From the sequence record OR896820.1: a stretch of 64,000 bases of DNA; one strand, 5' to 3'. The translations under genes were made by a program, and so were the position numbers. The notes below the pieces were generated by a model. It was given only the letters and a program-made list of their open reading frames with translations. It was not told the origin of the DNA and ran no database searches. Shown here one piece after another: positions 17,636 to 41,045 of the stretch. The stretch comes from Escherchia phage Stokescottia. Each line of letters begins with the position of its first letter. The stretch's first letter is position 1.

Positions 17636-17953
17636 ATGACTTTTCATATTTTGATTGATGATGTGCGTAATCTTCACGGAATGGACATTATCATTCGAAC
17701 CCCAGAAGCCGCTGTAGAGTTTCTGAATAAAACTGATACCACAGGCCATTTCGTTTATATGGATAATGACTTGGCTGTAGATGGTATGGAGGGTTATCAA
17801 ATTCTTCGTTTACTCTTAGAATTTGGGCAGAGACCAAAGAAAGTGGTACTAGTAACCTCGAACCCAGTAGCTAAGCAAAATATGCGTAATGATTTGCTTG
17901 ACTTAGGGTATAAAGAAAATCCCAATCGTGTTGAATATGATTGGCAGGAGTAA
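17636..17953 (+). CDS. hypothetical protein (possible receiver-like fold)
   Basis: ORF track; ILIDD...D pattern. Confidence 0.45.
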   Translation: MTFHILIDDVRNLHGMDIIIRTPEAAVEFLNKTDTTGHFVYMDNDLAVDGMEGYQILRLLLEFGQRPKKVVLVTSNPVAKQNMRNDLLDLGYKENPNRVEYDWQE

Positions 17954-18408
17954 AAAGAATGAAGGCAGCTTTGCTTTTAGTAGCTGCCCTTACCTTCAGC
18001 TTTAGTAGTCAGGCATCGCACGATGCAAGAGAAATAGATTGCATTGCTAAAAATATCTATTTCGAAAGTCGTGGTGAGGGCATAAAGGGAATGACGGCGA
18101 TTGCACATGTTACTAAAAACCGTGTAAACTCCGGTAAATTCCCAGATTCCTACTGTAAAGTAGTATATCAGTCTAACCAGTTCTCTTGGGTATCTAAGAG
18201 ACCAAAAGTTGATAAAACTGATGAGGCTTGGCAAACCGCTAAGAATTTAGCTAGAGTGATATACTACGTTGATTTACCACAAGATCCTACACATGGAGCA
18301 CTATACTTCCACAGTGGTAAAGATAAACCTTACTGGACAAAGAAGTTTAAGAAAACAACTAAGATTAAGGGACATACGTTTTATAAACCTGTTGTCACTA
18401 AAACTTAA
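17941..18408 (+). CDS. SleB/CwlJ-family cell wall hydrolase, secreted
   Basis: Signal peptide; CIAKNIYFESRGE...HVTKNRV...YCKVVYQ..QFSW...GALYFH. Confidence 0.75.
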   Translation: MAGVKRMKAALLLVAALTFSFSSQASHDAREIDCIAKNIYFESRGEGIKGMTAIAHVTKNRVNSGKFPDSYCKVVYQSNQFSWVSKRPKVDKTDEAWQTAKNLARVIYYVDLPQDPTHGALYFHSGKDKPYWTKKFKKTTKIKGHTFYKPVVTKT

Positions 18409-19140: not shown

Positions 19141-19545
19141 AGGGAACAGCGAGCCGATTACGCTGAGTGCAGAATCCCAACCGGAGCGCATTGAATAGAG
19201 TCGGTGGGTTAGTTGTAAAACTAGTACACAGGGGGCGGCAATTCCGGTTAGTGGCTAGAACGTGTAAAATGAGGCGTCTGAAACCTCTCCCCTAAACTCT
19301 TCTCTAATTTATAAATAGTGGGGTGTGGAAATCACTTATGTAGTAACACTGCCGTCCTAGTATAATTGGTATTATCAAGCCGTAACTGGTGGAAGATGTA
19401 GGTTCGAATCCTACGGTCGGTAAGAACTGGATAACTGGTGCTTTTAACGTAAAAGCTTCCGAGGTTAGTTGCGCACTGCCTAAACCACGCGGTAGTTGGT
19501 TCCAGACTAACCAACCAGTCTGCTGAATAGTTTTATTACGATTTA
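19141..19545 (+). ncRNA. candidate structured non-coding RNA(s), unassigned
   Basis: Promoter-driven ~400 nt without ORF; contains T-arm-like GTAGGTTCGAATCCTAC and a terminal hairpin GTTGGTT-CCAGACT-AACCAAC followed by T-rich tract. Confidence 0.3.
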
Positions 19546-20033: not shown

Positions 20034-20981
20034 ATGTTTGCTACTAAAAACACTAAAGAACTGACTTATGAGCAAAAATTAATGCGTAATATCAAACGTT
20101 GGGGTATTGGGGCTGCAGTTGGTTTGGTAGGTTTAGTTCTGGCTCTTAACTCTTACACTGTTGTTCAAGACGGTACTGTTAAAACCCAGACTTTCCTGGG
20201 TAAAGTTGACCCTAGCCCAGTATTACCCGGCTTTCATATTGTAAATCCTTTTGCTTCTTTCGATACTTTTAGTACTAAAGATATTGCTCTAAAATTAGAT
20301 AAACTTCAGGTTCCTAGTCAGGATAAGTTTAAATCCACTGTTGACCTGACTGTTATGTTGCAGTTTGATGGTTCTAAGGCACCGATTAACCGTATTAATG
20401 CAGGTACTCAGGATCAAGCATTAGACAAATATGTAACTGAAAAATTACTGTCTACTATTCGTGAGTTTGGTAAGTCTGTACCTAAAGCACAAGATTTATT
20501 TGATGCTAAAATTCAGGCTCAATTGCAAACTGCAATTCAACAGGAAGTTGAAGAGTATGCACGCCCATATGGTTACACAGTTAAGCAGGTGTTTCTTCAG
20601 GATATTACTTTGCCACCGGTAATCATGGAACAGGTACAGAATACCAAAGTTCGTGAAGAGCAAGTTAATGCTGCGAAAGCTGAGCTTGCTCGTGTTGAAC
20701 AGGAAGCACAGCAAAAAGTTAAACAAGCAGAAGCAGATCGTGAAGCTCGCAATAACCAAGCTATTGCTAATGAACGTGACGCAGATGCTAAACTGTACGC
20801 AGCTAAGAAAGAAGCTGAAGCTAACGCCGCACTGCAACGTACCATTACTCCTGAGATGATTCGTTGGAAACAACTGGAAGTTGAGATGATTCGTGCTCAG
20901 AAATATCAAGGTGGTGTACCTCAGACTGTAGTTGGCACTGGCTATGATGGTCAAATGATCATGGATATGCGTAACAAGTAA
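20034..20981 (+). CDS. SPFH/band-7 (prohibitin/HflC-like) membrane protein
   Basis: N-terminal TM helix, SPFH-like core, long Ala/Glu/Gln-rich coiled coil. Confidence 0.65.
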   Translation: MFATKNTKELTYEQKLMRNIKRWGIGAAVGLVGLVLALNSYTVVQDGTVKTQTFLGKVDPSPVLPGFHIVNPFASFDTFSTKDIALKLDKLQVPSQDKFKSTVDLTVMLQFDGSKAPINRINAGTQDQALDKYVTEKLLSTIREFGKSVPKAQDLFDAKIQAQLQTAIQQEVEEYARPYGYTVKQVFLQDITLPPVIMEQVQNTKVREEQVNAAKAELARVEQEAQQKVKQAEADREARNNQAIANERDADAKLYAAKKEAEANAALQRTITPEMIRWKQLEVEMIRAQKYQGGVPQTVVGTGYDGQMIMDMRNK

Positions 20982-21004
20982 TAGTTACACGTAATCTTCG
21001 AACT

Positions 21005-21040
21005 AAGCCCGCGTTTTCTCCGAGAGCGCGGGCTTTTCTG
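21005..21040. terminator. bidirectional terminator hairpin 1
   Basis: AAGCCCGCG...CGCGGGCTT followed by TTTTCTG; between convergent genes. Confidence 0.6.
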
Positions 21041-21057
21041 TATTTAAGGAAAAAGAA

Positions 21058-21095
21058 AAAGCCCCTTACCTTTCGGCAGGGGCTTTTGTTTTTTG
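21058..21095. terminator. bidirectional terminator hairpin 2
   Basis: A-run, GCCCCT...AGGGGC, then T-run. Confidence 0.65.
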
Positions 21096-21301
21096 GTTTA
21101 GAACCACACTCTCGGTGTACAGCAACCACCTATATGGGAGGCCAACCTTGACTGAAAATCTACTCTAGGGGGCAGGATAAGAGTAGGCTTAAAGGCAAAC
21201 GGATTGAACGCCGGTATTTGCGTAAACATTGCTGGAGAGCAACAACGTGCTACAGGCATTGGGCAGCACGAAACAGATTTTCTGCAACACATAATTCCTC
21301 C

Positions 21302-21718
21302 TTAGGAGTTATTACCACCATTTTGAGCTTTTGCAACTTGGCTTTGGCAGAAGCTATTAAACTTACCCATAAGTGATACAAGCTGCTTCCCGTCCTCTGT
21401 CTTTGCGAAGTCTTCGAAAAGGGCTAGTACTGCCTGTCCTTCCGCAGAAACCTGCGGTTGTTGGGTTTGTTGCTGAACTTGCTGCTGCGGCATCTGTTGC
21501 TGCATTTGTTGAGGCATTTGCGACTGCCCGCTCATTTGCTGCATCATTTGCATAGGACTCACACTTCCAGGGTTTTGCTGGAGTTGTTGCTGCATCTGTT
21601 GCGCTTCTGCTAAACGCTGTTGCAACTGTTGTAAGTAGGGGTTATCCAGACCCGGCATGGGCTGCTGGGAGCCCATACTTTGATTAAGTCCGTTATTTAC
21701 AAAACCATATTTACTCAT
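21302..21718 (-). CDS. Gln/Met-rich low-complexity protein
   Basis: 138 aa with QQLQQ/MQQQ repeats; clean start with RBS. Confidence 0.55.
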   Translation of the reverse strand: MSKYGFVNNGLNQSMGSQQPMPGLDNPYLQQLQQRLAEAQQMQQQLQQNPGSVSPMQMMQQMSGQSQMPQQMQQQMPQQQVQQQTQQPQVSAEGQAVLALFEDFAKTEDGKQLVSLMGKFNSFCQSQVAKAQNGGNNS

Positions 21719-21739
21719 AATGGGCTCCTCCCCTTAATA

Positions 21740-22732
21740 TTAAGCCGGCAGTTTAGCCTGCAGACCAGCCAGAGTCTGAGTGATAGCACCAAGACTTAAA
21801 GCGATTTGATTAATTACCTGACCGTTAGCACCGCTACCCGCAGCGATTGCTTCACGTAGGCGACATGCATCTAACTCATCCTGGATACGCGCAGTAGTTA
21901 CACCAGCGATCGCAGTCTGAAGCTCACAGCAGCACTCAGCAAGCTGGCGTTCGATAGAGTTCTGGTTAGCACACATCTGAGCCTGAACAGCGGCAAACTG
22001 GTTATTAGTTTGTAAAGTCTGCTGGAAAGCGATCTGTGCAGAATCAAACTTATCTTGTGCACGAGCTATCTGGTTAGCTGCGAAAGATTGATCAATCTGG
22101 CGAGAAAGATCGAACTGACCCTGAATAACGTTGCGAGTTTCCTGGCAGATCTGATTAGACAGATTAGCACCTGTACCATAGATCGTAGTTAGTACAGACT
22201 GAGTATCACGGCTCTGGTTTTGGGATGTCTGGCTAAAACCATTGTTAACTGCGCTTAAAACAGCTCCAGTACCCTGGTTAGCTTCTGTACGAGTAGTGTT
22301 AATAGCTGCTAGAATACTAGCGGTATCTTGGTTCTGAAGTACTGCATCAACTGCGGTACCTTCACCAACTATACCACGTCCACCGAATCCACCGAAACCA
22401 CCGAATCCGCCTGTTAATAGAGCACCGATTAGGATAGCTCCGAATAGTCCCATACCTTCACCACCGAAAGCGCCTGCGTTTGCTGGGTAACCACCCATTA
22501 GGCCAGGGAAGCCACTAGTGAATACGTTTACTGGTTCTTGCATTTTACGTTTTCCATATTTATGACAATACTCATCATCGTCATCTTCTTCATCATCTTC
22601 ATCGTGTTCACGATGTTTCTCTTCGTAGGCTCTGACCTTCTCCCACTTTTTCTTATCTGATTCCTCGTGACGGTGCAGTTCTGCTGCAACGCTAGCGACG
22701 GTCTCAGGACTCTTAGCTACTTCTTCTGTCAT
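21740..22732 (-). CDS. Gly/Gln/Ala-rich low-complexity protein with acidic N-terminus and Cys cluster
   Basis: Start at 22732 (MTEEV) after RBS AGGAGGTG; DEDDEEDDDDE stretch, GGFGGFGGFGG repeats, CCCELQ. Confidence 0.55.
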   Translation of the reverse strand: MTEEVAKSPETVASVAAELHRHEESDKKKWEKVRAYEEKHREHDEDDEEDDDDEYCHKYGKRKMQEPVNVFTSGFPGLMGGYPANAGAFGGEGMGLFGAILIGALLTGGFGGFGGFGGRGIVGEGTAVDAVLQNQDTASILAAINTTRTEANQGTGAVLSAVNNGFSQTSQNQSRDTQSVLTTIYGTGANLSNQICQETRNVIQGQFDLSRQIDQSFAANQIARAQDKFDSAQIAFQQTLQTNNQFAAVQAQMCANQNSIERQLAECCCELQTAIAGVTTARIQDELDACRLREAIAAGSGANGQVINQIALSLGAITQTLAGLQAKLPA

Positions 22733-22939
22733 TTTTTGACACCTCCTAGTATATAGAAAATGTGTGTCTCTTTGATCACTCATCCATAACATATACTTTA
22801 CACTACCCCAGCGAAAATGTCAAGGGGTCTTTAAAAATTGCCCCTGGATTTTTAGTGGGGTCACAAATTTTGGTCCTCACCACTTATCTGCTACCCTTAA
22901 GTGCCCTATGATTTTCCTCTAAAAAGTTAAAAAATTTGA

Positions 22940-30595: not shown

Positions 30596-30817
30596 ATGCA
30601 CGTTTTTGAGTTTCGTAATAAAAGTACCGATAAACGAGTTATTGTTATTGGAGAAACATACCGAGCATATGAACAAACTGACGGCTCTGTTATCCTGAAT
30701 GATGAGAAAGGGGGTTTTAGCTTTTATCCCAAAGAAACTTACGAAGAATTTCGTACAAAGTTTCTTCTACCAGACTGGCTAGAAGTAGCGCAGCAACGAG
30801 AACCCGAAGATGGCTGA
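30596..30817 (+). CDS. hypothetical protein
   Basis: ORF track. Confidence 0.5.
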   Translation: MHVFEFRNKSTDKRVIVIGETYRAYEQTDGSVILNDEKGGFSFYPKETYEEFRTKFLLPDWLEVAQQREPEDG

Positions 30818-30982
30818 TAACCTAAAAGTCAAGATCGATAAACAAAAGAAACGTGTAGAAGTAGAGATTGGTGAAGAACGTGTAGCCTTCACCTTTGAAT
30901 TTCTACAACAAATGGCAATGACAGTCATGACTGATAAGTCTCCTGTTATTGAAAAAGAAATCCCGTTGAAATAACGGGTTCT

Positions 30983-31069
30983 GCTGGGTTGGCAGAATGG
31001 TTGAATGCACCTGATTTGTAATCAGGAGGAGTAATCCCATTGCAGGTTCGAATCCTGTGCCCAGCACCA
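30983..31069 (+). tRNA. tRNA-Thr (anticodon TGT) with 15-nt variable region
   Basis: Acceptor GCTGGGT/GCCCAGC, 3-bp D-stem with 11-nt loop, anticodon stem CCTGA/TCAGG, loop TTTGTAA, discriminator A, CCA. Confidence 0.6.
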
Positions 31070-31251
31070 ATTTAAGGACTAGTATGTTTAAACTGTTAGT
31101 AGTTATCTGGTATAGTCAATCAAATAGAGCGAATACCTCCCACGTTATAGACTTTAATACTAAAAATGAAGCTGAAAAAGCATATGCTAATTTAATAGAA
31201 CGTAATAAAGAATCTCGTAGTATAGTTTATGAAGTGACTAAACTTTATTAA
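31057..31251 (+). CDS. hypothetical protein
   Basis: ORF track; 5' end overlaps tRNA-Thr, so the true start is probably downstream. Confidence 0.4.
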   Translation: MPSTNLRTSMFKLLVVIWYSQSNRANTSHVIDFNTKNEAEKAYANLIERNKESRSIVYEVTKLY

Positions 31252-31259
31252 AAATTCAT

Positions 31260-31288
31260 TTGCTTTCTCTCTTATTTCTTGTTATAAT
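31260..31288 (+). promoter_or_regulatory. sigma70-type early promoter
   Basis: TTGCTT 31260-31265, TATAAT 31283-31288. Confidence 0.6.
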
Positions 31289-31318
31289 ACTTGTATAAAT
31301 TAATGAGAGGGAAACCAA

Positions 31319-31612
31319 ATGAAACGTTATCTTTCTGTTATGTTCCAAACTGGTGGTCAACGCTATACCTATGAATTTCCATCTTCTTGGAAAATCAAAG
31401 AAGGTGATCAAGTAGTTGTACTAACACCGCGTGATGGGTACAAGGTAGTAACGGTTAAGCAAGTCTTTCCAAAAGATTATACACCATCTAAGTCTATTAA
31501 TTATAAGATGATTCATGGTGTAGTTCGTCAAGTACCCCGAGTGGACATCGAGGTCAAAGTAGATAAAGATGGTAAACTTAAATATACCTCTTGCTTAGAA
31601 GAGTTGCTATAA
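31319..31612 (+). CDS. hypothetical protein
   Basis: ORF track. Confidence 0.5.
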   Translation: MKRYLSVMFQTGGQRYTYEFPSSWKIKEGDQVVVLTPRDGYKVVTVKQVFPKDYTPSKSINYKMIHGVVRQVPRVDIEVKVDKDGKLKYTSCLEELL

Positions 31613-31818
31613 TGAGGATTACTTTTACAGAAAAGATCATGAGTAATGGTGTTATGATCATTACTGCATGGGATGGTAATCAGTGGTGTAGTGTTTCAGG
31701 TATTAAGCCTGAAGAACAAACACTAGAAAATATCTCAAAGATTAAGCGAAGAATGGCAGAACGTGCACGACTTCCAGGTGCACCTAGAAATGGCAAACGT
31801 TCTGCAATTAAATGTTAA
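31591..31818 (+). CDS. hypothetical protein
   Basis: ORF track. Confidence 0.45.
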   Translation: MLRRVAIMRITFTEKIMSNGVMIITAWDGNQWCSVSGIKPEEQTLENISKIKRRMAERARLPGAPRNGKRSAIKC

Positions 31819-31819
31819 T

Positions 31820-31896
31820 GCTTCGGTAGCTTAGCGATCTAAAGCACTCGGCTGATAACCGAGAGATCGGGGGTTTAAATCCCTCCCGGAGTACCA
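31820..31896 (+). tRNA. tRNA-Ile (anticodon GAT)
   Basis: Acceptor GCTTCGG/CCGGAGT, D-stem GCTT/AAGC, loop CTGATAA, T-loop TTTAAAT, discriminator A, CCA. Confidence 0.7.
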
Positions 31897-31992
31897 AATT
31901 TAGGAATTAAGACTATGCGTCCAGGAAAGTTTAAAAAAGCTAATTGGTCTAAAGAGTATAAAGAATACTTACTTAGTCTAGTAAAACATAAC

Positions 31993-32068
31993 AGTTAGTT
32001 GGCAGAGTGGTTATGCACCTCCTTCATACGGAGCGACTACAGTGGTTCAAATCCACTACTAACTACCA
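31993..32068 (+). tRNA. tRNA with CAT anticodon (Met or Ile-lysidine type)
   Basis: Acceptor AGTTAGT/ACTAACT, loop TTCATAC, T-arm AGTGG-TTCAAAT-CCACT, discriminator A, CCA. Confidence 0.6.
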
Positions 32069-32105
32069 TTAAAATAGCTAGAGATAGCTAAATTTAGGAG
32101 CAGCT

Positions 32106-32300
32106 ATGTTAACAATTAAAATAATGTCAGCCAAGAATGGGGAACAGATTCACACAGGCAAAAGTGTAAGCTTTAATCCTAGAAATAAAAGATTGGCTAT
32201 AGTTAGAGTAGACCAAGCCATCTTTTTAAAAGAAGATGAAGTAGCATATGTCATGAACCAAACTGGTAAGACAGTTTCCGTATACTATGGAAAAGTATAA
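32106..32300 (+). CDS. hypothetical protein
   Basis: ORF track. Confidence 0.45.
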   Translation: MLTIKIMSAKNGEQIHTGKSVSFNPRNKRLAIVRVDQAIFLKEDEVAYVMNQTGKTVSVYYGKV

Positions 32301-32342
32301 AGAATAAAGAGCTGAGCCAAATTCTAACATCGGGGAGATCTA

Positions 32343-32711
32343 ATGAAAGCATATCAAAATCTTAAATCTGGCGTAATTAACCTTGTTCATGAAAATCAGA
32401 TTATTCAGCTATACTCCGACAACGGTGAACTTAAACAGAAAGTTCTAGTTGAAGATCTAGAAGGTATCACACCACAATTCGATCCTGAAGCCTTCCGTGA
32501 AGTTAAGGTGGAAGTCGCACCTCAAATCGAAGGTGGTCAGCACCTAAATGTCAATGTGTTAAGTCGTGATCAGCTTTTGGATGCACAGAAACACCCTGAA
32601 AAATACCCTCAATTAACTATCCGTGTATCTGGCTACGCTGTTCGATTTAACGCGCTGACTCGTGAACAACAGAACGACGTTATTAGTCGTACATTTACTC
32701 AGGCGATGTAA
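32343..32711 (+). CDS. grcA: autonomous glycyl radical cofactor (YfiD/GrcA-like)
   Basis: C-terminal [11 protein letters not shown]...[33 protein letters not shown] closely matches the GrcA glycyl-radical domain. Confidence 0.85.
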
Positions 32712-32792
32712 TGGGGTTTGGATACGATTTCTCCCAGCTACGCAAGGTAGTCGAGCAAACTCCATTTATCTCCCAAGTTTTAGGAGAAATGT

Positions 32793-33107
32793 GTGGATCG
32801 AGCATTGAGACGCCATCACCGGCAACGTGTGAAGAACAACCGCAAGAAGTATTGGACAGTCTTCCCACATGAAGAAAGCCCTAAGCGGTTAGGTATTATC
32901 ACTACTACTCCTTGCATCTGTTCTTGTTGGATGTGTGGGAACCCTCGCAAATATTATAAGAATAGTAAAGCAGGCATGAAAATCTCGGAGATTAGGAAAA
33001 TGGAAGCAATGATTATGGGCATCTCAAATGATGAATTTGATGGCTTTGTAGGATTCGGAGAAGGAATCAGCTCAGGCTGTTTCGAAGATGAACGCCCCGA
33101 TCTGTAA
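32793..33107 (+). CDS. hypothetical protein
   Basis: ORF track. Confidence 0.4.
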   Translation: MDRALRRHHRQRVKNNRKKYWTVFPHEESPKRLGIITTTPCICSCWMCGNPRKYYKNSKAGMKISEIRKMEAMIMGISNDEFDGFVGFGEGISSGCFEDERPDL

Positions 33108-33116
33108 TTAATAACA

Positions 33117-33151
33117 AACCCCAGCTATTGAATAAGTAGTCTGGGGTTTTT
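33117..33151 (+). terminator. rho-independent terminator
   Basis: AACCCCAG...CTGGGGTT hairpin followed by T-run. Confidence 0.65.
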
Positions 33152-33228
33152 CTGTATACAGGAAAATAGTTTATGTATAATAAAATTCATCCACATTAGG
33201 TTAATTTAAAAGACTTAATGGAGGTAAT

Positions 33229-33576
33229 ATGAGCCGTACTTATCGTAGACAATCTGGTGATCAGTGGTGGAAATCTAAAGAACAATTCTCTCAAGAATAT
33301 TCTTTCCTCAAAGAAAATGGCTACTGGATTCGCGTTATTTATGCCAAATCCTGGGACGACATCAAAAAAGAAATGAAGGAAGCAACCATTCGTAATGAGA
33401 AAAAGGATGGTTATAACTGGAATTCTATTAGTAAGAATGTTAAGTGGCATTCTAATAAAATGGTTCGTCAAGGGAATCGTCAAGAACTCCACCGCGTGAT
33501 GAAAGATCCAGAAAATTATGACTATAATCGCGATCATGACATGCGTAAGCGTGGATTATGGTGGTGCTATGACTAA
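33229..33576 (+). CDS. hypothetical protein
   Basis: ORF track; RBS ggaggt. Confidence 0.5.
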   Translation: MSRTYRRQSGDQWWKSKEQFSQEYSFLKENGYWIRVIYAKSWDDIKKEMKEATIRNEKKDGYNWNSISKNVKWHSNKMVRQGNRQELHRVMKDPENYDYNRDHDMRKRGLWWCYD

Positions 33577-33593
33577 ATTCTGAAATAATTCAT

Positions 33594-33622
33594 TTGCTAA
33601 ACCTCTCTTTTCTTGCTATAAT
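33594..33622 (+). promoter_or_regulatory. sigma70-type early promoter
   Basis: TTGCTA 33594-33599, TATAAT 33617-33622. Confidence 0.6.
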
Positions 33623-33652
33623 ATGTTTATAAATTGATGAGAGAGGTTTGAA

Positions 33653-33934
33653 ATGAAAACTCGTCTAGACTGTGCTGTTCATGTTCTTGAACATGATGTT
33701 GCGGGAACCTGTATGTCTTACCACGAAGCAGGTCGTTTAATTAAAGAACGTGTGGCAGATGTGTGCGGATTGAAGATTACTGCTGAGGAAGCTGATGATC
33801 TTTTAGGCCAAGCACTGGAGAAAACCGAAATGTTTCTCTGCGATTCTTGTTCTTGGTGGTGTGAAGCTCACGAACGTTCTTTCAACGATTATGATGTATG
33901 TCGTGATTGTAGTGGGGAGGATGAAGATGAGTAA
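33653..33934 (+). CDS. Cys-rich small protein
   Basis: CDSCSWWC and CRDCSG motifs. Confidence 0.5.
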   Translation: MKTRLDCAVHVLEHDVAGTCMSYHEAGRLIKERVADVCGLKITAEEADDLLGQALEKTEMFLCDSCSWWCEAHERSFNDYDVCRDCSGEDEDE

Positions 33935-34226
33935 GCTTATTATTGCACTGATGATCTCCGCAGTTAGTTTCGGTTCTCTGGCATCTACCAAAGTTTCTAT
34001 GAAAAATGGTAATGTTAAAGTCCAACAGAACGGCATTATTACCGAGTATGGTAAAGTTCGTGATGTTAAGGAACGTAATGGTAAAGTAGAAATATATACT
34101 AATAAAAACTTCTCTACTCCAGCCGTTACTATTAGCAAACGCGGTGAAATAACCACTCAACGTACTAATAGTTCTGATTCTTTTACTTGTCGTTATGATT
34201 GCGACTTTGAAGGTGAAGATGAATAA
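33927..34226 (+). CDS. secreted/periplasmic small protein
   Basis: ATGA overlap with upstream stop; signal-peptide-like N-terminus. Confidence 0.5.
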   Translation: MSKLIIALMISAVSFGSLASTKVSMKNGNVKVQQNGIITEYGKVRDVKERNGKVEIYTNKNFSTPAVTISKRGEITTQRTNSSDSFTCRYDCDFEGEDE

Positions 34227-34638
34227 TTTAGACCCTAGAATTAAATTTGCAATTACAGAAATCCAAGATCAAATTGATGAGGACTTCACTGTTTGGTCAA
34301 GGTCTGGTAATGGAGAATATTGCCAGCTTTATAGCATGAAAATGGGTATCTCAATTGAGCTTAATATCAACTCTGAAGGTAGAGTAGAAGCCCAACCCAT
34401 GTTCAGTGTTCCAGGCTTCTCTGGATTTGTTGCAGGTATAAAATTGTGTCTACCAAATAACCATCTTCATCGAGTTATTTGTCAGCTAGTGACTATTAAG
34501 CATTTCTTGCCAGAAGGTAACATTAATGACTACTACCATGAAGTTGTAGCAGCTCATATGATGAAAGAACGCAAACGTCGGAGAGAAGAACGTGAAAAGA
34601 CTAAACATCAACAGCACAGTGCAGATTCCAGCAACTAA
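34195..34638 (+). CDS. hypothetical protein
   Basis: ORF track. Confidence 0.5.
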   Translation: MIATLKVKMNNLDPRIKFAITEIQDQIDEDFTVWSRSGNGEYCQLYSMKMGISIELNINSEGRVEAQPMFSVPGFSGFVAGIKLCLPNNHLHRVICQLVTIKHFLPEGNINDYYHEVVAAHMMKERKRRREEREKTKHQQHSADSSN

Positions 34639-34888
34639 GGATGTTTTAACATTCCTACGTAGTGAGAATACCCAATTTTGGCATGACTATATTCAGGAAA
34701 ATAAAAATAATCCAGGTATAGTTGCTTTTGCCAAGAAACGTATCGAAGAATATAAAGATCCAGAGATTAAAGATGGGATGATCACAATGCAATTGTGGGT
34801 AGCCATGAATACGTTTGGACCCACTATGAGTCTAGGAGTTACTCCACTGTTTACTAATATTCTAATTAATGAAAAGGATCTGAAATGA
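34592..34888 (+). CDS. hypothetical protein
   Basis: ORF track. Confidence 0.45.
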   Translation: MKRLNINSTVQIPATKDVLTFLRSENTQFWHDYIQENKNNPGIVAFAKKRIEEYKDPEIKDGMITMQLWVAMNTFGPTMSLGVTPLFTNILINEKDLK

Positions 34889-35169
34889 TTGTTTCTCCGT
34901 TTGCTCTTTGGTTCGTCATTGGGTCTGTGGTTGCTATTTACAGCTTGGTTGATGATCTGTATATTTCTAAGAATAAAGATGTAATATTATACGTTATACG
35001 TAAAACTCGACCGTTAGATCTGCCACCTCTTGATGATAAAACATTACTCAGATGTGCTAGATCTGTGATATTTATTGTGGATATTCTTCTAGGCCCAACA
35101 TCTGTGTTTTTCTTTTATAGAAAAACTCGTAATATGAAAAAATTTAAAGCTGAAATGCAGAATACTTAA
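34885..35169 (+). CDS. membrane protein
   Basis: Two hydrophobic segments. Confidence 0.45.
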   Translation: MIVSPFALWFVIGSVVAIYSLVDDLYISKNKDVILYVIRKTRPLDLPPLDDKTLLRCARSVIFIVDILLGPTSVFFFYRKTRNMKKFKAEMQNT

Positions 35170-35243
35170 AGAACTCGCGTAGGACCGAGTTGCGTCACCT
35201 GCAACTGTTACGGATAAGGGAGTCGTGCCCCTTAGTGCGGTAA

Positions 35244-35624
35244 GTGGTGAGGTGGCTGCTAGCCCTAACTGGAGATAATATGACTATATTACTAATTCTT
35301 GTTACAACTTGGTTTTTAATCGGTGCTGGATATGCGATAGCTATTATTAGACATTTGGACGAATATTCTGCTGAATGGTTTATTAAGTATCTACGTATTG
35401 ATGATCAAGAACAGAAGTTTAAAGATGAAAAGCAGAAAAAAGCAGTAAATAATATGACAGCCAAAGAATGCTTGTTCTACATGCGTATTGTAGGGTTCTT
35501 TGGACTATTAGTTGCTGGCCCAATTGGTTCTACCATTGCTCCGTATAAAGAAACAGTTGCTGACATCAAATTGTGGAGAAATGCAGGGGTACTGCGTAAA
35601 GCTAGAGAAACTAATATTACATAA
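35244..35624 (+). CDS. membrane protein
   Basis: Hydrophobic N- and C-terminal segments. Confidence 0.45.
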   Translation: MVRWLLALTGDNMTILLILVTTWFLIGAGYAIAIIRHLDEYSAEWFIKYLRIDDQEQKFKDEKQKKAVNNMTAKECLFYMRIVGFFGLLVAGPIGSTIAPYKETVADIKLWRNAGVLRKARETNIT

Positions 35625-35718
35625 GATTGATACTAAATCAACTTACTAGCAAAAGCAAATAATGACAAAGCCCAGCTTGCACTTTTGCGACTGGGCTATT
35701 TTTATAATAAAATTTTAG

Positions 35719-35747
35719 TTGCTTAGATGCCCAAACTTTTGTATAAT
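35719..35747 (+). promoter_or_regulatory. sigma70-type early promoter
   Basis: TTGCTT 35719-35724, TATAAT 35742-35747. Confidence 0.6.
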
Positions 35748-35778
35748 ATGTTTATAGATTGAGGCAAGAGGATTAAAT

Positions 35779-36477
35779 ATGAGGATTATTTCTAAGTTCG
35801 CCGATGTGTATGATTTGCAGAACAGTTTGTTCGACCCAGATCGTGTGTGGGAACGTAAAACTGAGGAGTTACTGGTTAAAGTAACCGATGATGCAGAAAA
35901 GAACATTGTGCATACTCGCCAGGTATTTCGTGATGGTTCGCTATCTTTCCGTGGTGATTTCGAATACTTCGTAAACCCCCTATTTGTTGCAGGTGAAGTT
36001 TACTGGTTACACGAGCTGTACTGCTGGCATCCAGCATTTAGCTTCAAAACGTTTAATCTCGACACTATGTTTGATAAAATGGAAGAGATGGGATTACATG
36101 CTCGCTCTTACTTAATGGATAAGAGTCGTGGAGATGTTCGTGAAACAATGCGTGATCTACTAGCTGAAGCAAAACCTAAAGCAGAACGTATCTTATCCGA
36201 ACTGCGTGTACCGATTGCATATGTGAAAGGTATTAAAAAGAACGATAACGATGATGTTCGTAACTTCGTAATTCAGACTAACATTCGTTTCCATCAGTCC
36301 GGTATTCCGTGGCAGGAAATTGAAAGCAACTTATACCGTTTACACCAAGTTCTCGAACAGTATATCTTCGGTGTACTAGGAACTGGTGAGCCTGATATGA
36401 TTAAAGTATCAGATAAAGACAGGTTAGCAGCGCATGGATTTGATACAAAAACTTCTTTCAGGAATATGGCGCGGTAA
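35779..36477 (+). CDS. hypothetical protein
   Basis: 232 aa; ORF track. Confidence 0.55.
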   Translation: MRIISKFADVYDLQNSLFDPDRVWERKTEELLVKVTDDAEKNIVHTRQVFRDGSLSFRGDFEYFVNPLFVAGEVYWLHELYCWHPAFSFKTFNLDTMFDKMEEMGLHARSYLMDKSRGDVRETMRDLLAEAKPKAERILSELRVPIAYVKGIKKNDNDDVRNFVIQTNIRFHQSGIPWQEIESNLYRLHQVLEQYIFGVLGTGEPDMIKVSDKDRLAAHGFDTKTSFRNMAR

Positions 36478-36883
36478 GTGGTATATCCTGGGAGCAGGTC
36501 TAGCGATAGGCATCGGGTTCGGTGCTTATCACCTAATAAATAAAGTGGAGACTTTGGCAGGAGATCTTGCGGTAGCTACTAAAAAGATCTCTTCTCTAGA
36601 GACTTCCCTTAACAAGGTGAAAGCTGAGAGTGAACTTCGTGAGACTCGTATGAATCAGTATTTCACAATGAATAATGTTTCCCAAGCAGATCTAGATAAG
36701 AAAATTAGTCAGCTTGATAAAGCACTTAGTCGTCAAGACATTATAGCTGCAAAGCCTAGATTGGTAACATTAATTGCTAAAAAGCAGAGTAAGGAGTTCG
36801 AGGAAAGATTAGCATGTTTAACTGGAAACTTGGAATACTGCTCGCAGCCGCAATCACAATCACAGGCTGTGCACAAGAAATAA
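36434..36883 (+). CDS. membrane-anchored coiled-coil protein (possible i-spanin)
   Basis: N-terminal TM helix then coiled coil; overlaps downstream lipoprotein gene. Confidence 0.4.
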   Translation: MDLIQKLLSGIWRGKWYILGAGLAIGIGFGAYHLINKVETLAGDLAVATKKISSLETSLNKVKAESELRETRMNQYFTMNNVSQADLDKKISQLDKALSRQDIIAAKPRLVTLIAKKQSKEFEERLACLTGNLEYCSQPQSQSQAVHKK

Positions 36884-37167
36884 AGACAGAATCTACACAT
36901 GAGCTACCAACAGCTCATGTAGACTGGCCCAAAGGACTTCAACCTTGTAGCTTTGACTTTAAGTTTGAAAAGAAATTAGCTACAAATGGAGAAGATGGCG
37001 TAGTAGTTGTTGTACCATATAAAGACTGGAATATGTTGGCAAAATGCCGTGAGGCAGAATATTCCTATATTTCACGACTGACTGGTATGGTTTGCTTCTA
37101 TCGCCAAGATTTACAAGAAAAACGTTGCTTAGTTTACTATCCACCAATTAACAATAGGAAAGATTAA
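36814..37167 (+). CDS. lipoprotein (possible o-spanin)
   Basis: Signal peptide with lipobox ITGC; overlapping arrangement with upstream TM protein. Confidence 0.4.
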   Translation: MFNWKLGILLAAAITITGCAQEIKTESTHELPTAHVDWPKGLQPCSFDFKFEKKLATNGEDGVVVVVPYKDWNMLAKCREAEYSYISRLTGMVCFYRQDLQEKRCLVYYPPINNRKD

Positions 37168-37919
37168 TGTCAGTATTAGTCGGTTTACATGGTGAAGCTG
37201 GTTCGGGAAAAGATACTGTTGCAAAATTAATTATCGATTGGTGTAATGACACGTATCCAACGTGTTTACCCCGTCGTTACAGTTTTGCTAAGCCCGTTTA
37301 TGAACTTGCATCCGTAATCCTCGGTGTAACTCCAGAGTTTCTAGGAGAGCGCAGGGGAAAAGAGGTTGACCAATGGTTTACAGTCACACAATCTCAATTG
37401 GAGCGAGCCAGAGATGTGTGGTTTAAGTACGGTATCGATAAGTTTGAAGACTTCTCGTACGTTTGGCCTATTTTTGAGGAAAAATATCTTAATCCTCAAC
37501 AACTTATCTCAGAGAATAAAGAAGACGGACTTTATAGTTTATTTATTTCTCCGAGAAAAATGTTACAGCTCGTAGGGACAGAGCTAGGAAGGCAGCTGGT
37601 GCATGAACGCATTTGGCTCATAATTCTGGAGCAATCCATCGCTAAAGACGACCCAGATGTCGCCGTAATAACAGATGTTAGATTCCCCAATGAAGGAGAG
37701 CTACTCAGAGAAACAAACCATTTAGATATGGATTCTTTGATAGTAAATGTAGTACCCGCTGAGCAGAAGTTCACTATTAAATCAGATCATCCATCTGAAA
37801 GTGGTATTCCTGCAAAATATATTACTCACGAATTAGTTAATAAATTCGATGGTATCAATAACCTTAAACTAGAAGTTTATAACTTCTGTGACTTAGAGCT
37901 AGAACCACTAGTTGGATAA
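37167..37919 (+). CDS. deoxynucleoside monophosphate kinase
   Basis: P-loop LHGEAGSGKDT at N-terminus; 250 aa. Confidence 0.65.
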   Translation: MSVLVGLHGEAGSGKDTVAKLIIDWCNDTYPTCLPRRYSFAKPVYELASVILGVTPEFLGERRGKEVDQWFTVTQSQLERARDVWFKYGIDKFEDFSYVWPIFEEKYLNPQQLISENKEDGLYSLFISPRKMLQLVGTELGRQLVHERIWLIILEQSIAKDDPDVAVITDVRFPNEGELLRETNHLDMDSLIVNVVPAEQKFTIKSDHPSESGIPAKYITHELVNKFDGINNLKLEVYNFCDLELEPLVG

Positions 37920-37931
37920 TCAAGGATCGCT

Positions 37932-38531
37932 ATGACTAATAAAAAAGAAGAAAAGACTAACCTGTTTCACTCCATTCGCCAATCTAACGAGTATACCTTT
38001 TTCTTTGATGAAGAATTAGGGCCGCCGGATGAATACCGTGATTTATCAATGGTACTTATGCAGGCAAATGAGGACGACGAAATTAATTTGATGATTAATG
38101 GCCCGGGTGGTTATGTTGATACTGCTGCACAGTTATCTAACTTAATTGCTAATTGCCGTGGAACAGTTATAGGACATCTGATTGGTCCTAGTGCTTCTGC
38201 TTACTGCACAATTTTCCTATCCTGTCATGGATGGGTAGTACATCCACATGCTACGCTAATGGGACACACGTTCTCTGGCGGGTTCTGTGAGAAAGGTCAA
38301 GAAATCAAGAAAGCCTATGAATCTTACAACAAGTTCGTAGAAGATATGATGCTAGATGTCTACTATCCATTCTTCTCAATAGATGAAATCGACGAGATGG
38401 TAAAAGACAACAAAAATATCTATCTAGATAGCAAAGAAATCCATAAGCGTATTGAAATCTTGGCAAAATATCGATCTGAGCAATATAATAAAGCCCAGTT
38501 ACCTCAATTCGAGGAGCACAACGAAGAGTAA
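37932..38531 (+). CDS. ClpP-like serine protease
   Basis: INGPGGYV and GPSASAY blocks resemble ClpP motifs. Confidence 0.5.
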   Translation: MTNKKEEKTNLFHSIRQSNEYTFFFDEELGPPDEYRDLSMVLMQANEDDEINLMINGPGGYVDTAAQLSNLIANCRGTVIGHLIGPSASAYCTIFLSCHGWVVHPHATLMGHTFSGGFCEKGQEIKKAYESYNKFVEDMMLDVYYPFFSIDEIDEMVKDNKNIYLDSKEIHKRIEILAKYRSEQYNKAQLPQFEEHNEE

Positions 38532-38540
38532 GTAGTTTTA

Positions 38541-38573
38541 AGCCAGGGTTTAACGACCCTGGCTTTTCTTTTA
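38541..38573 (+). terminator. rho-independent terminator
   Basis: AGCCAGGGT...ACCCTGGCT hairpin followed by T-run. Confidence 0.7.
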
Positions 38574-38634
38574 TCTAAAATTCTTCTTGACAACGACAAA
38601 ATTTTATGCTCCAGAAGTGATCTTTAAAAACACA

Positions 38635-38663
38635 TTGTAATTTTCCTCCAAAATTAGTATAAT
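38635..38663 (+). promoter_or_regulatory. sigma70-type promoter
   Basis: TTGTAA 38635-38640, TATAAT 38658-38663. Confidence 0.45.
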
Positions 38664-38687
38664 GGTACTGGTTAGAGGAGGTTACAA

Positions 38688-39754: not shown

Positions 39755-39764
39755 TTAATAACTG

Positions 39765-39788
39765 AGGCGGGAATATTCCCGCCTTTTT
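39765..39788 (+). terminator. rho-independent terminator
   Basis: AGGCGGGA-ATAT-TCCCGCCT followed by T-run. Confidence 0.7.
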
Positions 39789-39831
39789 AGGCAAAGGGGG
39801 CTTTAATAATTTTTGAAGATAGGAGAAAGCC

Positions 39832-40221: not shown

Positions 40222-40263
40222 GAAAAGATTTATACATGTAGTAGATTAAGATAAAAAAGTAGT

Positions 40264-41039: not shown

Positions 41040-41045
41040 TAAACA

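What the first reader, a model, noticed from the sequence alone, without database searches (positions are those of the whole stretch)
20034..22792. Convergent pair: SPFH/band-7 membrane protein facing two low-complexity Gln-rich and Gly-rich proteins
In an otherwise plus-strand early region, two minus-strand genes (21302-21718 and 21740-22732) converge on an SPFH-domain gene across a double bidirectional terminator. The minus-strand products are unusual for a phage: one is dominated by QQ/MQQ repeats, the other has an acidic DEDDEEDDDDE stretch, GGFGGFGGFGG repeats, a long Gln/Asn/Ala-rich region and CCCELQ. Composition suggests condensate-forming or structural/internal virion proteins; SPFH proteins organise membrane microdomains or regulate proteases.
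Basis: partly seen in the sequence, partly recalled or inferred. Interest (0 to 1): 0.6.

Follow-up and report, generated by a model that had tools for sequence, protein, structure and literature searches.

The report
Accessory three-gene cassette beside SPFH gene
This stretch of a T5-like phage holds an ordinary SPFH membrane-protein gene next to a separately acquired, dispensable three-gene cassette of unknown function, whose main membrane protein belongs to a large unstudied family that is abundant in human-gut crAss-like phages.

Summary
The window is a T5-like phage (97.7% identical to phage fp01). It carries the T5.080 SPFH gene (20034-20981, +) facing the homologues of T5.077 and T5.078 on the minus strand. 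The interpretation mostly fails. The minus-strand genes form a self-contained operon with its own sigma-70 promoter (P12) and terminator. Its GC content is 45-50%, against 34-40% around it. It is cleanly absent from phage DT57C and lies inside the viable T5 st0 deletion, so it is not an essential virion component. The SPFH gene occurs in 723 phage records and the cassette in only 222, so the two are independent neighbours. The acidic stretch and the Gln-rich stretch are the least conserved parts. The conserved parts are one Gly-rich hydrophobic segment, a helical domain with an invariant CCC motif, and a 45-aa helical hairpin in the partner. T5.077 belongs to a large phage family with no known function. 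My best guess is an accessory early complex anchored in the inner membrane. Its actual role is unknown.

The parts
20034..20981 (+). SPFH/Band-7 membrane protein gene (T5.080 homologue). It has an N-terminal transmembrane segment at about residues 23-45, then an SPFH domain, then an Ala/Gln/Glu-rich tail. It contains no cysteine.
   Evidence: Pfam PF01145 at E 2.5e-17. phrog_200 at 1.5e-85. The closest solved relatives are E. coli QmcA (E 1.9e-6) and prohibitin-2. dN/dS against T5 is 0.06.
21005..21035 (+). Hairpin 1: the intrinsic terminator of the SPFH gene. Its 3' arm carries the T5-type nick consensus (AGA|GCGC, between 21025 and 21026 on the + strand). It is part of the phage backbone, not of the cassette.
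   Evidence: The terminator scan finds a 14-bp stem followed by a T-run. It aligns with the T5 position annotated 'major DNA single-chain interruption'. It is retained in DT57C, which lacks the cassette.
21050..21096 (.). Hairpin 2: bidirectional rho-independent terminator ter1 (A-tract, GC stem, T-tract). It ends the minus-strand operon.
   Evidence: It is annotated as a bidirectional terminator in phage 5 and T5. It folds on both strands with z-scores of -4.05 and -3.35. The stem differs from T5 by paired changes. It lies inside the indel that is absent from DT57C.
21098..21292 (-). Third gene of the operon (T5.079 homologue): a 64-aa peptide with four Cys-Cys doublets that starts with Met-Cys-Cys. 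It has no hydrophobic segment.
   Evidence: The ORF and its AAGGAGG Shine-Dalgarno sequence are. It is annotated with a ribosome-binding site in phage 5. An MCC...CC small ORF sits directly after the 078-like gene in T5, L008, L009 and the Pseudomonas-phage locus L010. dN/dS of 0.55 rests on only 12 differences and is inconclusive.
21302..21718 (-). Second gene (T5.078 homologue): a 138-aa soluble protein. It has a conserved helix at 27-48, a variable Gln/Met/Pro-rich linker at about 49-88, and a highly conserved C-terminal helical hairpin at 92-133 with an invariant Cys124.
   Evidence: phrog_7894, function unknown. The alignment shows the linker is missing from diverged orthologues. AlphaFold2 gives pLDDT 83-91 for the hairpin and below 50 for the linker. 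There is no hydrophobic segment. dN/dS is 0.20.
21740..22732 (-). First gene (T5.077 homologue): a 330-aa protein. It has an N-terminal helix (12-41), an acidic linker, one Gly-rich hydrophobic segment (about 93-118), and a helical Gln/Asn/Ala-rich domain of about 210 aa with the invariant CCC motif (267-269).
   Evidence: phrog_8119 at 5.9e-204. The AlphaFold2 model is all-helical but has low confidence, pLDDT 46.8. The family was defined. Region-by-region conservation is. dN/dS is 0.15.
22795..22823 (-). Promoter P12 of the operon: TTGACA, a 17-nt spacer, TAAAGT, followed by ATATG. An A/T-rich stretch lies upstream.
   Evidence: The promoter scan scores 10 of 12. It is annotated as promoter P12 in T5 and phage 5. 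It is conserved in the diverged T5-like loci L008 and L009. The discriminator resembles the ATATT of T5 early promoters (PMC7472727).
21037..22888 (-). Extent of the insertion/deletion unit (promoter, three genes, terminator) that is present here but absent from phage DT57C. It is a compositional island.
   Evidence: BLAST of the DT57C intergenic region against the window shows about 1.85 kb replaced by about 46 nt. The DT57C annotation places T5.080 directly next to T5.076. GC content is 0.45-0.50 here, against 0.34-0.40 in the flanks.

Best explanation
The minus-strand genes are the T5.077-T5.078-T5.079 operon of a T5-like phage. It is a self-contained, horizontally mobile, dispensable cassette with its own sigma-70 early-type promoter and its own bidirectional terminator. 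It sits tail-to-tail next to the phage's SPFH gene but is not functionally tied to it.

**Shown**
- The unit is present or absent as a block among close relatives.
- It is GC-richer than its surroundings.
- It lies inside a viable T5 deletion.
- Its three genes travel together into an unrelated Pseudomonas phage.
- Its low-complexity stretches are poorly conserved linkers. The conserved parts are a single Gly-rich hydrophobic segment, a helical domain with an invariant Cys-Cys-Cys motif, a 45-aa helical hairpin in the partner, and an N-terminal Met-Cys-Cys in the micropeptide.

**Inferred**
- The 330-aa protein is anchored in the inner membrane by its one hydrophobic segment.
- Its conserved helical CCC domain faces the cytoplasm. 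There it binds the signal-less 138-aa hairpin protein and the Cys-doublet peptide, probably as a coiled-coil oligomer held or tuned by thiols or a bound metal.
- The complex is made early in infection. It alters the cell envelope or inner membrane in a way that helps the phage only outside laboratory conditions. Excluding competing phages or coping with host defences are the most likely roles.
For: **Identity**
- The region is 97.7% identical over 3.1 kb to T5-like phages.
- The T5 and phage 5 annotations show P12, three ORFs and terminator ter1.

**Autonomy and mobility**
- The cassette has a near-consensus promoter and strong Shine-Dalgarno sequences.
- It has a bidirectional terminator.
- It is cleanly absent from DT57C and forms a GC island.
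- The 330-aa and 138-aa proteins co-occur in exactly 222 phage records with the same organism split, including 3 Pseudomonas phages.
- The triplet of genes is conserved in L008, L009 and L010.

**Dispensability**
- The st0 deletion (33667-41891) spans T5.077-080.
- The T5Mos deletion (30661-38625) cuts into T5.077 (PMC11464382; gene coordinates).
- The region is a known deletion hotspot (PMC12483538).

**Independence from SPFH**
- SPFH is in 723 records, including T4-like phages at 80-83% identity.
- No Band_7 gene is called within 7 kb of the pair in L008, L009 or L010. The 326-aa and 353-aa genes with no recorded Pfam hit in L008 and L009 were not checked.

**Architecture**
- The 330-aa protein has one hydrophobic segment. 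The partners have none and no signal peptide.
- The C-terminal CCC region and the hydrophobic segment are the most conserved parts (0.88), and the acidic linker the least (0.57).
- CCC is present in 140 of 150 family representatives.
- Cysteine counts show no even-number bias (64 even, 65 odd). Obligate periplasmic disulfides would be expected to produce one.
- Lys/Arg on the C-terminal flank of the hydrophobic segment equal or exceed those on the N-terminal flank in 137 of 150 representatives.

**Timing**
- The P12 discriminator ATATG resembles the ATATT of T5 early promoters.
Against: - No homologue has a known function. Pfam, NCBIfam, PADLOC and PDB searches all gave nothing significant.
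- The topology is inferred from weak charge statistics and from the partners lacking signal peptides. It has not been measured.
- A 90-residue charged N-terminal region together with a cytoplasmic C-terminal domain would require a re-entrant hairpin rather than a membrane span. That is speculative.
- The structure model of the 330-aa protein is low-confidence (pLDDT 46.8).
- In crAss-like phages, distant family members sit among late genes (head and lysis genes), not early genes. This fits an early envelope-modifying role poorly.
- I found no expression or phenotype data for these genes.
Confidence: 0.45

Rival explanations
1. The 330-aa protein family is a virion-borne or head-assembly protein, for example an ejected membrane-inserting protein or a fibre or scaffold. 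Its Gly-rich hydrophobic segment would act like a fusion peptide on the host membrane at infection. In this reading, T5-like phages carry a non-essential copy.
For: - In crAss-like phages and a myovirus, family members lie inside morphogenesis blocks. They sit between the small terminase and the major capsid protein, next to tail-fibre-like genes, or between capsid and connector genes.
- Depositors labelled these genes 'spike protein/glycoprotein' or 'outer capsid protein/viral fiber'.
- A profile search of PDB gives only sub-threshold matches, but they are to influenza HA2 and coronavirus spike heptad repeats (E 0.2-5).
- From my own knowledge, the segment GLFGAI equals the first six residues of the HA2 fusion peptide.
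Against: - T5 st0 lacks the gene entirely and is viable. From my own knowledge, st0 is the strain used for T5 virion structure work, and the known T5 structural proteins all map to the late region.
- Here the gene has an early-type sigma-70 promoter in the early region.
- About half of T5-like phages lack it.
- The PDB matches are not significant and probably reflect composition.
Confidence: 0.15
2. The cassette is a lysis accessory: a membrane-fusing or membrane-disrupting factor, or a regulator of holin timing. It would work like a spanin or a class I fusion protein, with a membrane anchor plus long coiled coils that collapse into a hairpin.
For: - The layout of a hydrophobic anchor plus about 200 aa of helix with conserved cysteines resembles i-spanins. 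That comparison rests on my own knowledge of lambda Rz.
- In three crAss-like families, the member lies within a few genes of an annotated holin or endolysin.
- Spanin defects are tolerated in laboratory culture, so dispensability does not argue against this reading.
Against: - T5 already has an endolysin, a holin and an Rz-like spanin pair elsewhere (T5.040-045; PMC4342426).
- Neither partner protein has a signal peptide, a lipobox or any hydrophobic segment, so there is no outer-membrane partner.
- T5.077 lacks the aromatic/Gly-rich C-terminal tail found in the crAss-like members.
- Members also occur in viruses assigned to Methanomassiliicoccales archaea. From my own knowledge, those archaea have no outer membrane.
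- The cysteine counts show no even-number bias.
Confidence: 0.12
3. One reading: the Gln-rich and Gly-rich low-complexity sequences drive phase separation, so the products act as condensate scaffolds in the infected cell.
For: The 138-aa protein is 28% Gln, with a segment predicted as disordered. The 330-aa protein has acidic and GGF-repeat stretches.
Against: - The Gln-rich segment varies in length and is missing from diverged orthologues that keep the flanking helix and hairpin.
- The acidic stretch is the least conserved region.
- The GGF repeats are part of a hydrophobic, membrane-type segment (Kyte-Doolittle 1.72 over 19 residues).
- Selection acts on the folded and helical parts.
Confidence: 0.05
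4. The cassette and the SPFH protein work together. For example, the SPFH cage might corral or regulate the Gly-rich membrane protein, which would explain why the genes face each other.
For: - The genes are adjacent in every T5-like phage that has the cassette.
- Both products are predicted membrane proteins.
- From general knowledge of HflK/C and QmcA, SPFH proteins organise or regulate membrane-protein clients.
Against: - SPFH is present in about 500 more phage records than the cassette, including T4-like phages without it.
- DT57C keeps SPFH but has no cassette.
- No Band_7 gene is called within 7 kb of the pair in the Pseudomonas-phage locus or in the diverged T5-like loci L008 and L009. 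The 326-aa and 353-aa genes with no Pfam hit in L008 and L009 were not checked.
- The two units have separate promoters and terminators and differ in GC content.
Confidence: 0.08

Closest known systems
Phage T5 genes T5.077, T5.078, T5.079 (also T5p075-077; 'ORF 327aa / 138aa / 64aa' of Salmonella phage 5) with promoter P12 and terminator ter1
   Same: Same genes, order, promoter and terminator. The 330-aa protein is 81% identical to T5 and the 64-aa ORF is 91% identical. The 138-aa gene differs from T5 by about 17 nucleotide changes in 138 codons.
   Different: Nothing essential differs. In every record these genes are annotated only as hypothetical proteins, and I found no paper that discusses them.
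PHROG families 8119, 16490 and 9288 (phage proteins of unknown function, abundant in Crassvirales)
   Same: They share one Gly/aromatic-rich hydrophobic segment, a helical domain of about 200 aa and the CCC motif. There are at least 3,737 clusters at 90% identity in metagenomes.
   Different: T5.077 has an extra N-terminal helix plus an acidic/His-rich region. It lacks the C-terminal 'QPNTVPV...' and Gly/Tyr/Trp/Cys-rich tail. Its gene neighbours also differ: 078 and 079 here, against a different block of four or five genes in crAss-like phages.
Phage 'morons' and accessory early membrane proteins (for example T5 Llp, T4 Imm/Sp, P22 SieA, phi29 p16.7); named from my own knowledge
   Same: It is an independent transcription unit with its own promoter and terminator, atypical GC content, presence/absence polymorphism and dispensability in the laboratory. 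It encodes a membrane protein with an early-type promoter.
   Different: There is no sequence or structural similarity to any of these proteins, and no exclusion or replication phenotype has been tested. The comparison is by analogy only.
Spanins (lambda Rz/Rz1, T4 PseT.3/PseT.2, T1 gp11) and class I viral fusion subunits (influenza HA2, coronavirus S2)
   Same: The layout is similar: a hydrophobic, Gly-rich membrane-active segment followed by long heptad-type helices with conserved cysteines. There are sub-threshold profile matches to HA2 and spike HR1.
   Different: The matches are not significant. There is no lipoprotein partner. T5 has true Rz-like spanins elsewhere. The gene is not in a lysis cassette here.
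SPFH/Band-7 proteins (E. coli QmcA, HflK/HflC, prohibitins); for the plus-strand gene only
   Same: The Band_7 domain scores above Pfam's cut-off. It has an N-terminal transmembrane segment. QmcA is the best solved relative.
   Different: It is phage-encoded. I did not look for an NfeD or FtsH partner. The database label 'lipoprotein' (phrog_200, RefSeq) cannot be right, because the protein contains no cysteine.

Membership tests
SPFH / Band-7 (Pfam PF01145) | Band_7 domain scoring above Pfam's gathering threshold | tested here: met
   63.9 bits against a cut-off of 23.6, E 2.5e-17, covering residues 52-225 and profile positions 13-176 of 176. QmcA and prohibitin-2 are the only PDB sequence hits.
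SPFH / Band-7 (Pfam PF01145) | N-terminal membrane anchor before the SPFH domain | tested here: met
   Hydropathy peaks at 1.81 over residues about 23-45, preceded by Lys/Arg residues.
SPFH / Band-7 (Pfam PF01145) | Partner gene (NfeD) or protease client (FtsH), as in cellular SPFH operons | not tested
   No NfeD-like gene is annotated next to it in T5, phage 5, HdH2 or DT57C. I ran no dedicated search.
PHROG 8119/16490 family (uncharacterised phage proteins) | Significant profile match over the full length | tested here: met
   phrog_8119 at 5.9e-204 over residues 1-330. Of 50 diverse relatives, 43 hit phrog_16490 and 17 hit phrog_8119.
PHROG 8119/16490 family (uncharacterised phage proteins) | Single Gly-rich hydrophobic segment plus a CCC motif in a helical domain | tested here: met
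   CCC is present in 140 of 150 representatives. Only 2 have a second hydrophobic segment. The window protein has its hydrophobic segment at 93-118 and CCC at 267-269.
Moron-like accessory cassette | Own promoter and terminator, independent of the flanking operons | tested here: met
   Promoter TTGACA-17-TAAAGT. It is annotated as P12, and ter1 is annotated as the terminator. Hairpin 2 folds on both strands.
Moron-like accessory cassette | Presence/absence polymorphism among close relatives, and atypical base composition | tested here: met
   Absent from DT57C with clean junctions. Found in 222 of about 458 T5-like records. GC 0.45-0.50 against 0.34-0.40.
Moron-like accessory cassette | Dispensable for lytic growth | tested here: met
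   It lies inside the annotated st0 deletion of viable T5. The T5Mos deletion ends inside T5.077. This rests on database annotation and the literature, not on an experiment done here.
Two-component or unimolecular spanin | Outer-membrane lipoprotein component, or an N-terminal lipobox | tested here: not met
   The 138-aa and 64-aa proteins have no hydrophobic segment (maximum Kyte-Doolittle over 19 residues: 0.45 and 0.85) and no signal-peptide or lipobox context.
Two-component or unimolecular spanin | Position in or next to the lysis cassette, with no other spanin in the genome | tested here: not met
   The T5 holin, endolysin and Rz-like spanins are T5.040-045, about 16 kb away. T5-like spanins are described in PMC4342426.
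Class I viral fusion protein | Significant sequence or fold similarity to the fusion subunit | tested here: not met
   The best PDB profile hits (HA2, spike) have E 0.2-5. The model is too uncertain for a fold search (pLDDT 46.8).
Virion structural / internal protein | Required for, or present in, infectious particles | tested here: not met
   The gene is deleted in viable T5 st0 and absent from many T5-like phages. Presence in particles of this particular phage cannot be tested with these tools.
Condensate-forming (prion-like, low-complexity) protein | Low-complexity region conserved and central to the protein | tested here: not met
   The Gln-rich linker is missing in orthologues P0144-P0147. 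The acidic linker is the least conserved region.
Known anti-phage defence or anti-defence protein | Match to a PADLOC model or to a named anti-defence family | tested here: not met
   None of the four proteins has a PADLOC hit at E up to 0.1, and none has an NCBIfam hit.

The most novel reading that the evidence does not exclude
T5.077-079 may be the genetically tractable representative of a very large, unstudied class of phage membrane-active proteins, with thousands of members mostly in human-gut crAss-like phages. In this reading, the protein works through an invariant Cys-Cys-Cys cluster in a coiled-coil oligomer, served by a Cys-doublet micropeptide and a small hairpin adaptor. That would be a thiol- or metal-based device at the host membrane, of a kind not yet described for phages.
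Probability: 0.15. Interest if true: 0.7.

Novelty: new variant of a known kind. Interest (0 to 1): 0.4.

Why it matters
On its own the locus is ordinary: an annotated but uncharacterised accessory cassette in a well-known phage, next to a common SPFH gene.

Its value is as a handle. T5 is easy to manipulate genetically, and viable deletions that remove the cassette already exist. Its main protein is a clear relative of a family with at least 3,737 sequence clusters in metagenomes, mostly from crAss-like gut phages that are hard to grow. No member of that family has a known function. Working out what T5.077-079 does would annotate a large block of phage 'dark matter'.

The result also corrects three recurring database labels:
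- 'lipoprotein' for the cysteine-free SPFH protein;
- 'cAMP-dependent protein kinase catalytic subunit' for the Gln-rich 138-aa protein;
- 'spike glycoprotein' or 'viral fiber' for the crAss-like relatives.

Tried and rejected
**Searches that gave nothing for the three cassette proteins**
- Pfam, NCBIfam and PADLOC scans gave no significant hit.
- PDB sequence-profile searches gave only sub-threshold hits: HA2 and spike heptad repeats for the 330-aa family, and miscellaneous helices for the 138-aa family.
- An Rfam scan of 18.5-23.6 kb found no RNA family in the cassette or its terminators. Only weak terminator-like matches appeared.
- Literature searches for the T5 locus tags, the PHROG numbers and phage SPFH proteins found no functional study.

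**Structure prediction**
- The 330-aa protein, predicted with a 33-sequence alignment, gave a low-confidence all-helical model (pLDDT 46.8). I did not use it for fold search.
- The 138-aa model has a confident C-terminal hairpin, but Foldseek against PDB found nothing.
A better model of the family core was therefore not obtained.

**Hypotheses considered and rejected**
- *Spanin:* T5 has Rz-like spanins elsewhere and the partners have no lipobox.
- *Obligate SPFH partner:* the distributions do not match.
- *Disulfide-rich periplasmic domain:* cysteine counts show no even-number bias, 64 even against 65 odd.
- *Structural protein:* viable deletions remove the genes.

**Idea left untested**
- The small acidic-then-basic proteins next to the crAss-like relatives may correspond to the N-terminal domain of T5.077. 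I noted this but did not test it, because alignments of such low-complexity sequence are unreliable.

Full report
**What the window is.** The 3.1-kb region is 97.7% identical to T5-like phages such as fp01 and Th1, and it matches 458 phage records. All 21 tRNA genes in the window are on the + strand. So are nearly all large ORFs between about 6 kb and 50 kb. The curated records for Salmonella phage 5 and for T5 show the same layout as the window:
- tRNA-Arg;
- a Band-7 gene (T5.080);
- a terminator region;
- three genes on the opposite strand (T5.079, T5.078, T5.077) driven by promoter P12;
- the primase-like gene T5.076.

**Checking the observation.**
- The plus-strand product is a genuine SPFH protein. 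Pfam Band_7 scores 63.9 bits against a cut-off of 23.6, and E. coli QmcA is the best solved relative.
- All three large genes are under purifying selection relative to T5, with dN/dS of 0.06, 0.15 and 0.20.
It has a strong Shine-Dalgarno sequence and is annotated with a ribosome-binding site in phage 5.
- A small ORF that begins Met-Cys-Cys and contains further Cys-Cys doublets follows the 078-like gene in T5, in two diverged T5-like contigs and in a Pseudomonas-phage contig.
- The 'double bidirectional terminator' is really two elements, as set out below.

**The two hairpins.** Hairpin 1 (21005-21035) terminates the SPFH gene. It aligns with the T5 position annotated as a major single-strand interruption and keeps the consensus Pu|GCGC. 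Hairpin 2 (about 21050-21096) is the annotated bidirectional terminator ter1. It folds well on both strands.

**The minus-strand genes are a separate, mobile, dispensable unit.**
- Phage DT57C has T5.080 directly next to T5.076.
- Alignment shows that window positions of about 21037-22888 are replaced there by about 46 nt. This removes the promoter, the three genes and hairpin 2 but leaves hairpin 1.
- The unit has 45-50% GC, against 34-40% on either side.
- P12 is a near-consensus sigma-70 promoter (TTGACA, 17 nt, TAAAGT). It has an A/T-rich upstream stretch, is conserved even in diverged T5-like loci, and is followed by ATATG, which resembles the ATATT discriminator reported for T5 early promoters (PMC7472727).
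- The annotated st0 deletion of T5 (33667-41891) removes T5.077-080 entirely.
- The T5Mos strain used in the PARIS study carries a deletion (30661-38625) that ends inside T5.077 (PMC11464382). Both phages are viable.
- The region is a known deletion hotspot (PMC12483538).
- From my own knowledge, T5 st0 is the strain commonly used for T5 particle structure work, and the known T5 structural proteins map to the late region.

**The cassette is not tied to the SPFH gene.**
- The 330-aa and 138-aa proteins each occur in exactly 222 phage records with identical organism counts.
- The SPFH protein occurs in 723 records, including T4-like Klebsiella, Enterobacter and Aeromonas phages at 63-84% identity.
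- In a Pseudomonas-phage contig of about 62 kb, the three-gene set lies next to the terminase and portal genes, and no Band_7 gene is called within 7 kb.
- No Band_7 hit is recorded near the pair in the diverged T5-like loci either, though I did not scan every neighbouring gene there.

**What the proteins look like.**
- *The 138-aa protein.* The Gln/Met/Pro-rich segment varies in length and is absent from diverged orthologues. A helix (about 27-48) and a C-terminal hairpin of about 45 aa with an invariant Cys are almost unchanged. AlphaFold2 predicts the hairpin confidently (pLDDT 83-91) and the linker as disordered.
- *The 330-aa protein.* The acidic/His-rich stretch is the least conserved region (0.57). 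The Gly-rich hydrophobic segment and the C-terminal CCC region are the most conserved (0.88). There is one hydrophobic segment (about 93-118, Kyte-Doolittle 1.72). The partners have none. The structure model is all-helical after residue 127 but has low confidence.

**A large hidden family.**
- A word-indexed search found only 32 relatives.
- A full profile search of 1.84 billion representative proteins found 645 clusters at E up to 1e-3 and 141 at E up to 1e-10.
- A profile of 50 diverse members then found at least 3,737 clusters at 90% identity.
- These map to PHROGs 16490, 8119 and 9288, all of unknown function. They have no Pfam family.
- The shared core has four parts: a short acidic N-terminus, one Gly/aromatic-rich hydrophobic segment, about 200 aa of helix, and a CCC motif, typically Q-x-x-x-C-C-C-E/D. 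CCC is present in 140 of 150 representatives.
- Most members also carry a C-terminal tail rich in Gly, Tyr, Trp and Cys. T5.077 lacks this tail.
- Members are common in several Crassvirales families. They also occur in Bacteroides phage C3_41T2LP, in a myovirus, and in viruses assigned to Methanomassiliicoccales archaea.
- In those records they are labelled 'spike protein/glycoprotein' or 'outer capsid protein/viral fiber'. I suspect these labels came from weak coiled-coil similarity, like the sub-threshold HA2 and spike hits I obtained.
- In crAss-like phages the gene lies near holin and endolysin genes and at the edge of the head module. It is followed by a conserved block of small genes unrelated to T5.078 and T5.079.

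**How it most likely works.**
- *Shown:* it is an autonomous, dispensable early-type operon encoding a protein with one membrane-type segment and two small signal-less partners. The co-conserved core of the module is the C-terminal CCC region of T5.077 plus the hairpin of T5.078. Both are retained at 58-64% identity in the Pseudomonas phage.
- *Inferred:* these two parts bind each other. T5.078 and T5.079 have no export signal, so the CCC domain would then face the cytoplasm.
- *Weak support for that orientation:* Lys/Arg on the C-terminal flank of the hydrophobic segment equal or exceed those on the N-terminal flank in 137 of 150 members. Cysteine counts show no even-number bias.
- *A further clue:* all three proteins carry invariant cysteines (CCC, Cys124, Met-Cys-Cys). 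This points to shared thiol or metal chemistry.
- *The biological role:* this is a guess by analogy with other early, dispensable phage membrane proteins. The most likely roles are exclusion of competitors or dealing with host defences.
- *Confidence:* I put about 0.45 on the overall picture. I am far more confident about the anatomy than about the role.

**Rivals.**
- *Virion or head-assembly role.* The crAss-like gene context favours it. The viable T5 deletions, the early promoter and the patchy distribution argue against it.
- *Lysis-accessory or spanin-like role.* The layout and the crAss-like context favour it. Against it, T5 has its own endolysin, holin and Rz-like spanins (PMC4342426), no lipoprotein partner exists, and members occur in viruses of archaea that, from my own knowledge, have no outer membrane.
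- *Condensate formation.* The poor conservation of the low-complexity parts contradicts it.
- *Functional coupling to SPFH.* The distributions contradict it.

**Novelty and verdict.** The genes have been annotated as hypothetical proteins since the T5 and phage 5 records were deposited. I found no paper that studies them. The locus is therefore an ordinary accessory cassette of unknown function, not a structural or condensate system, and its position facing the SPFH gene is incidental. What appears not to have been noted before is threefold:
- it is a three-gene mobile unit;
- its low-complexity look is misleading;
- its main protein links phage T5 to a very large uncharacterised family that is abundant in gut crAss-like phages.

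That gives it moderate interest (0.4). Interest would be higher only if the cysteine-cluster membrane complex turns out to be a new functional class.

Noticed in passing
window 21020-21035 (nick consensus between 21025 and 21026, + strand): The 3' arm of the SPFH terminator hairpin carries AGA|GCGCGGG. This aligns exactly with the T5 site annotated 'major DNA single-chain interruption' (consensus N-Pu|GCGC-N). DT57C keeps the motif too. One of the T5-type genome nicks therefore probably falls inside this terminator stem.
   Followed up: partly
window 19351-19422 (+), within the region homologous to T5 'RNAX': Rfam finds a tRNA-like element here (35.5 bits, above the gathering score of 29). ARAGORN does not report it. 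It lies inside the annotated stable 'RNAX' of unknown function, upstream of tRNA-Arg. It may be a degenerate tRNA or a tRNA-like processing signal.
   Followed up: no
window 21098-21718 compared with 21740-22732 and 20034-20981: Synonymous divergence from T5 is about four times lower for the 138-aa and 64-aa genes (dS 0.10-0.125) than for the 330-aa and SPFH genes (dS 0.47). The cause could be a recombination mosaic inside the cassette or an extra nucleotide-level constraint, such as an RNA element in the 3' half of the operon. It remains unexplained.
   Followed up: no
window 20034-20981: The SPFH protein is labelled 'lipoprotein' in phrog_200 and in many RefSeq phage records. It contains no cysteine at all, so it cannot be lipid-modified at a lipobox. 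The label looks like an inherited annotation error.
   Followed up: yes
window 21302-21718 and its homologues in GenBank: Several records annotate the 138-aa Gln-rich protein as 'cAMP-dependent protein kinase catalytic subunit'. No kinase domain is detectable. The label probably comes from a low-complexity Gln-rich match.
   Followed up: partly
window 20034-20981; hits H90-H102: The T5-like SPFH protein is 80-84% identical to proteins of T4-like Klebsiella, Enterobacter, Raoultella and Citrobacter phages, and about 63% identical to those of Aeromonas T4-like phages. This implies recent gene exchange between unrelated phage families.
   Followed up: no
L006/L007 6001-6885; L016 4761-5738; L017 5001-5900: In some crAss-like contigs, the relatives of the 330-aa protein and their neighbours contain in-frame TAG stops where the database protein has Gln. 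This is consistent with TAG-to-Gln recoding in those phages.
   Followed up: partly
L014 7829-9398; L015 6677-8473; L016 4105-6760; L017 5918-8082; L007 6913-9062: In crAss-like phages the family member is followed by a conserved block. The block contains a beta-rich protein of about 115-180 aa, a protein of about 170 aa that starts 'MF(S/G)xL(R/K)QG', a small protein with an acidic cluster followed by a basic cluster, and a protein of about 130 aa (DUF7841 in one case). The small charged protein resembles the N-terminal helix, acidic cluster and basic cluster of T5.077. That domain may therefore be a fused version of it. I did not test this.
   Followed up: no
hits H72 (OR848805.1, 'Listeria phage LM 4-14-1', 3.6 kb) and P0110 ('Enterococcus faecalis'); also 'Campylobacter' records: Near-identical T5-like sequences are deposited under Gram-positive or Campylobacter host names. 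These are most likely contamination or mislabelling rather than real host range.
   Followed up: no
window 17941-18408 (+): A SleB/CwlJ-type cell-wall hydrolase gene (the T5.083 homologue, labelled 'endolysin' in RefSeq) has an N-terminal signal-like sequence. It lies 3 kb from the cassette, far from the true T5 lysis genes T5.040-045. Its role, if different from that of the main endolysin, is unclear.
   Followed up: no
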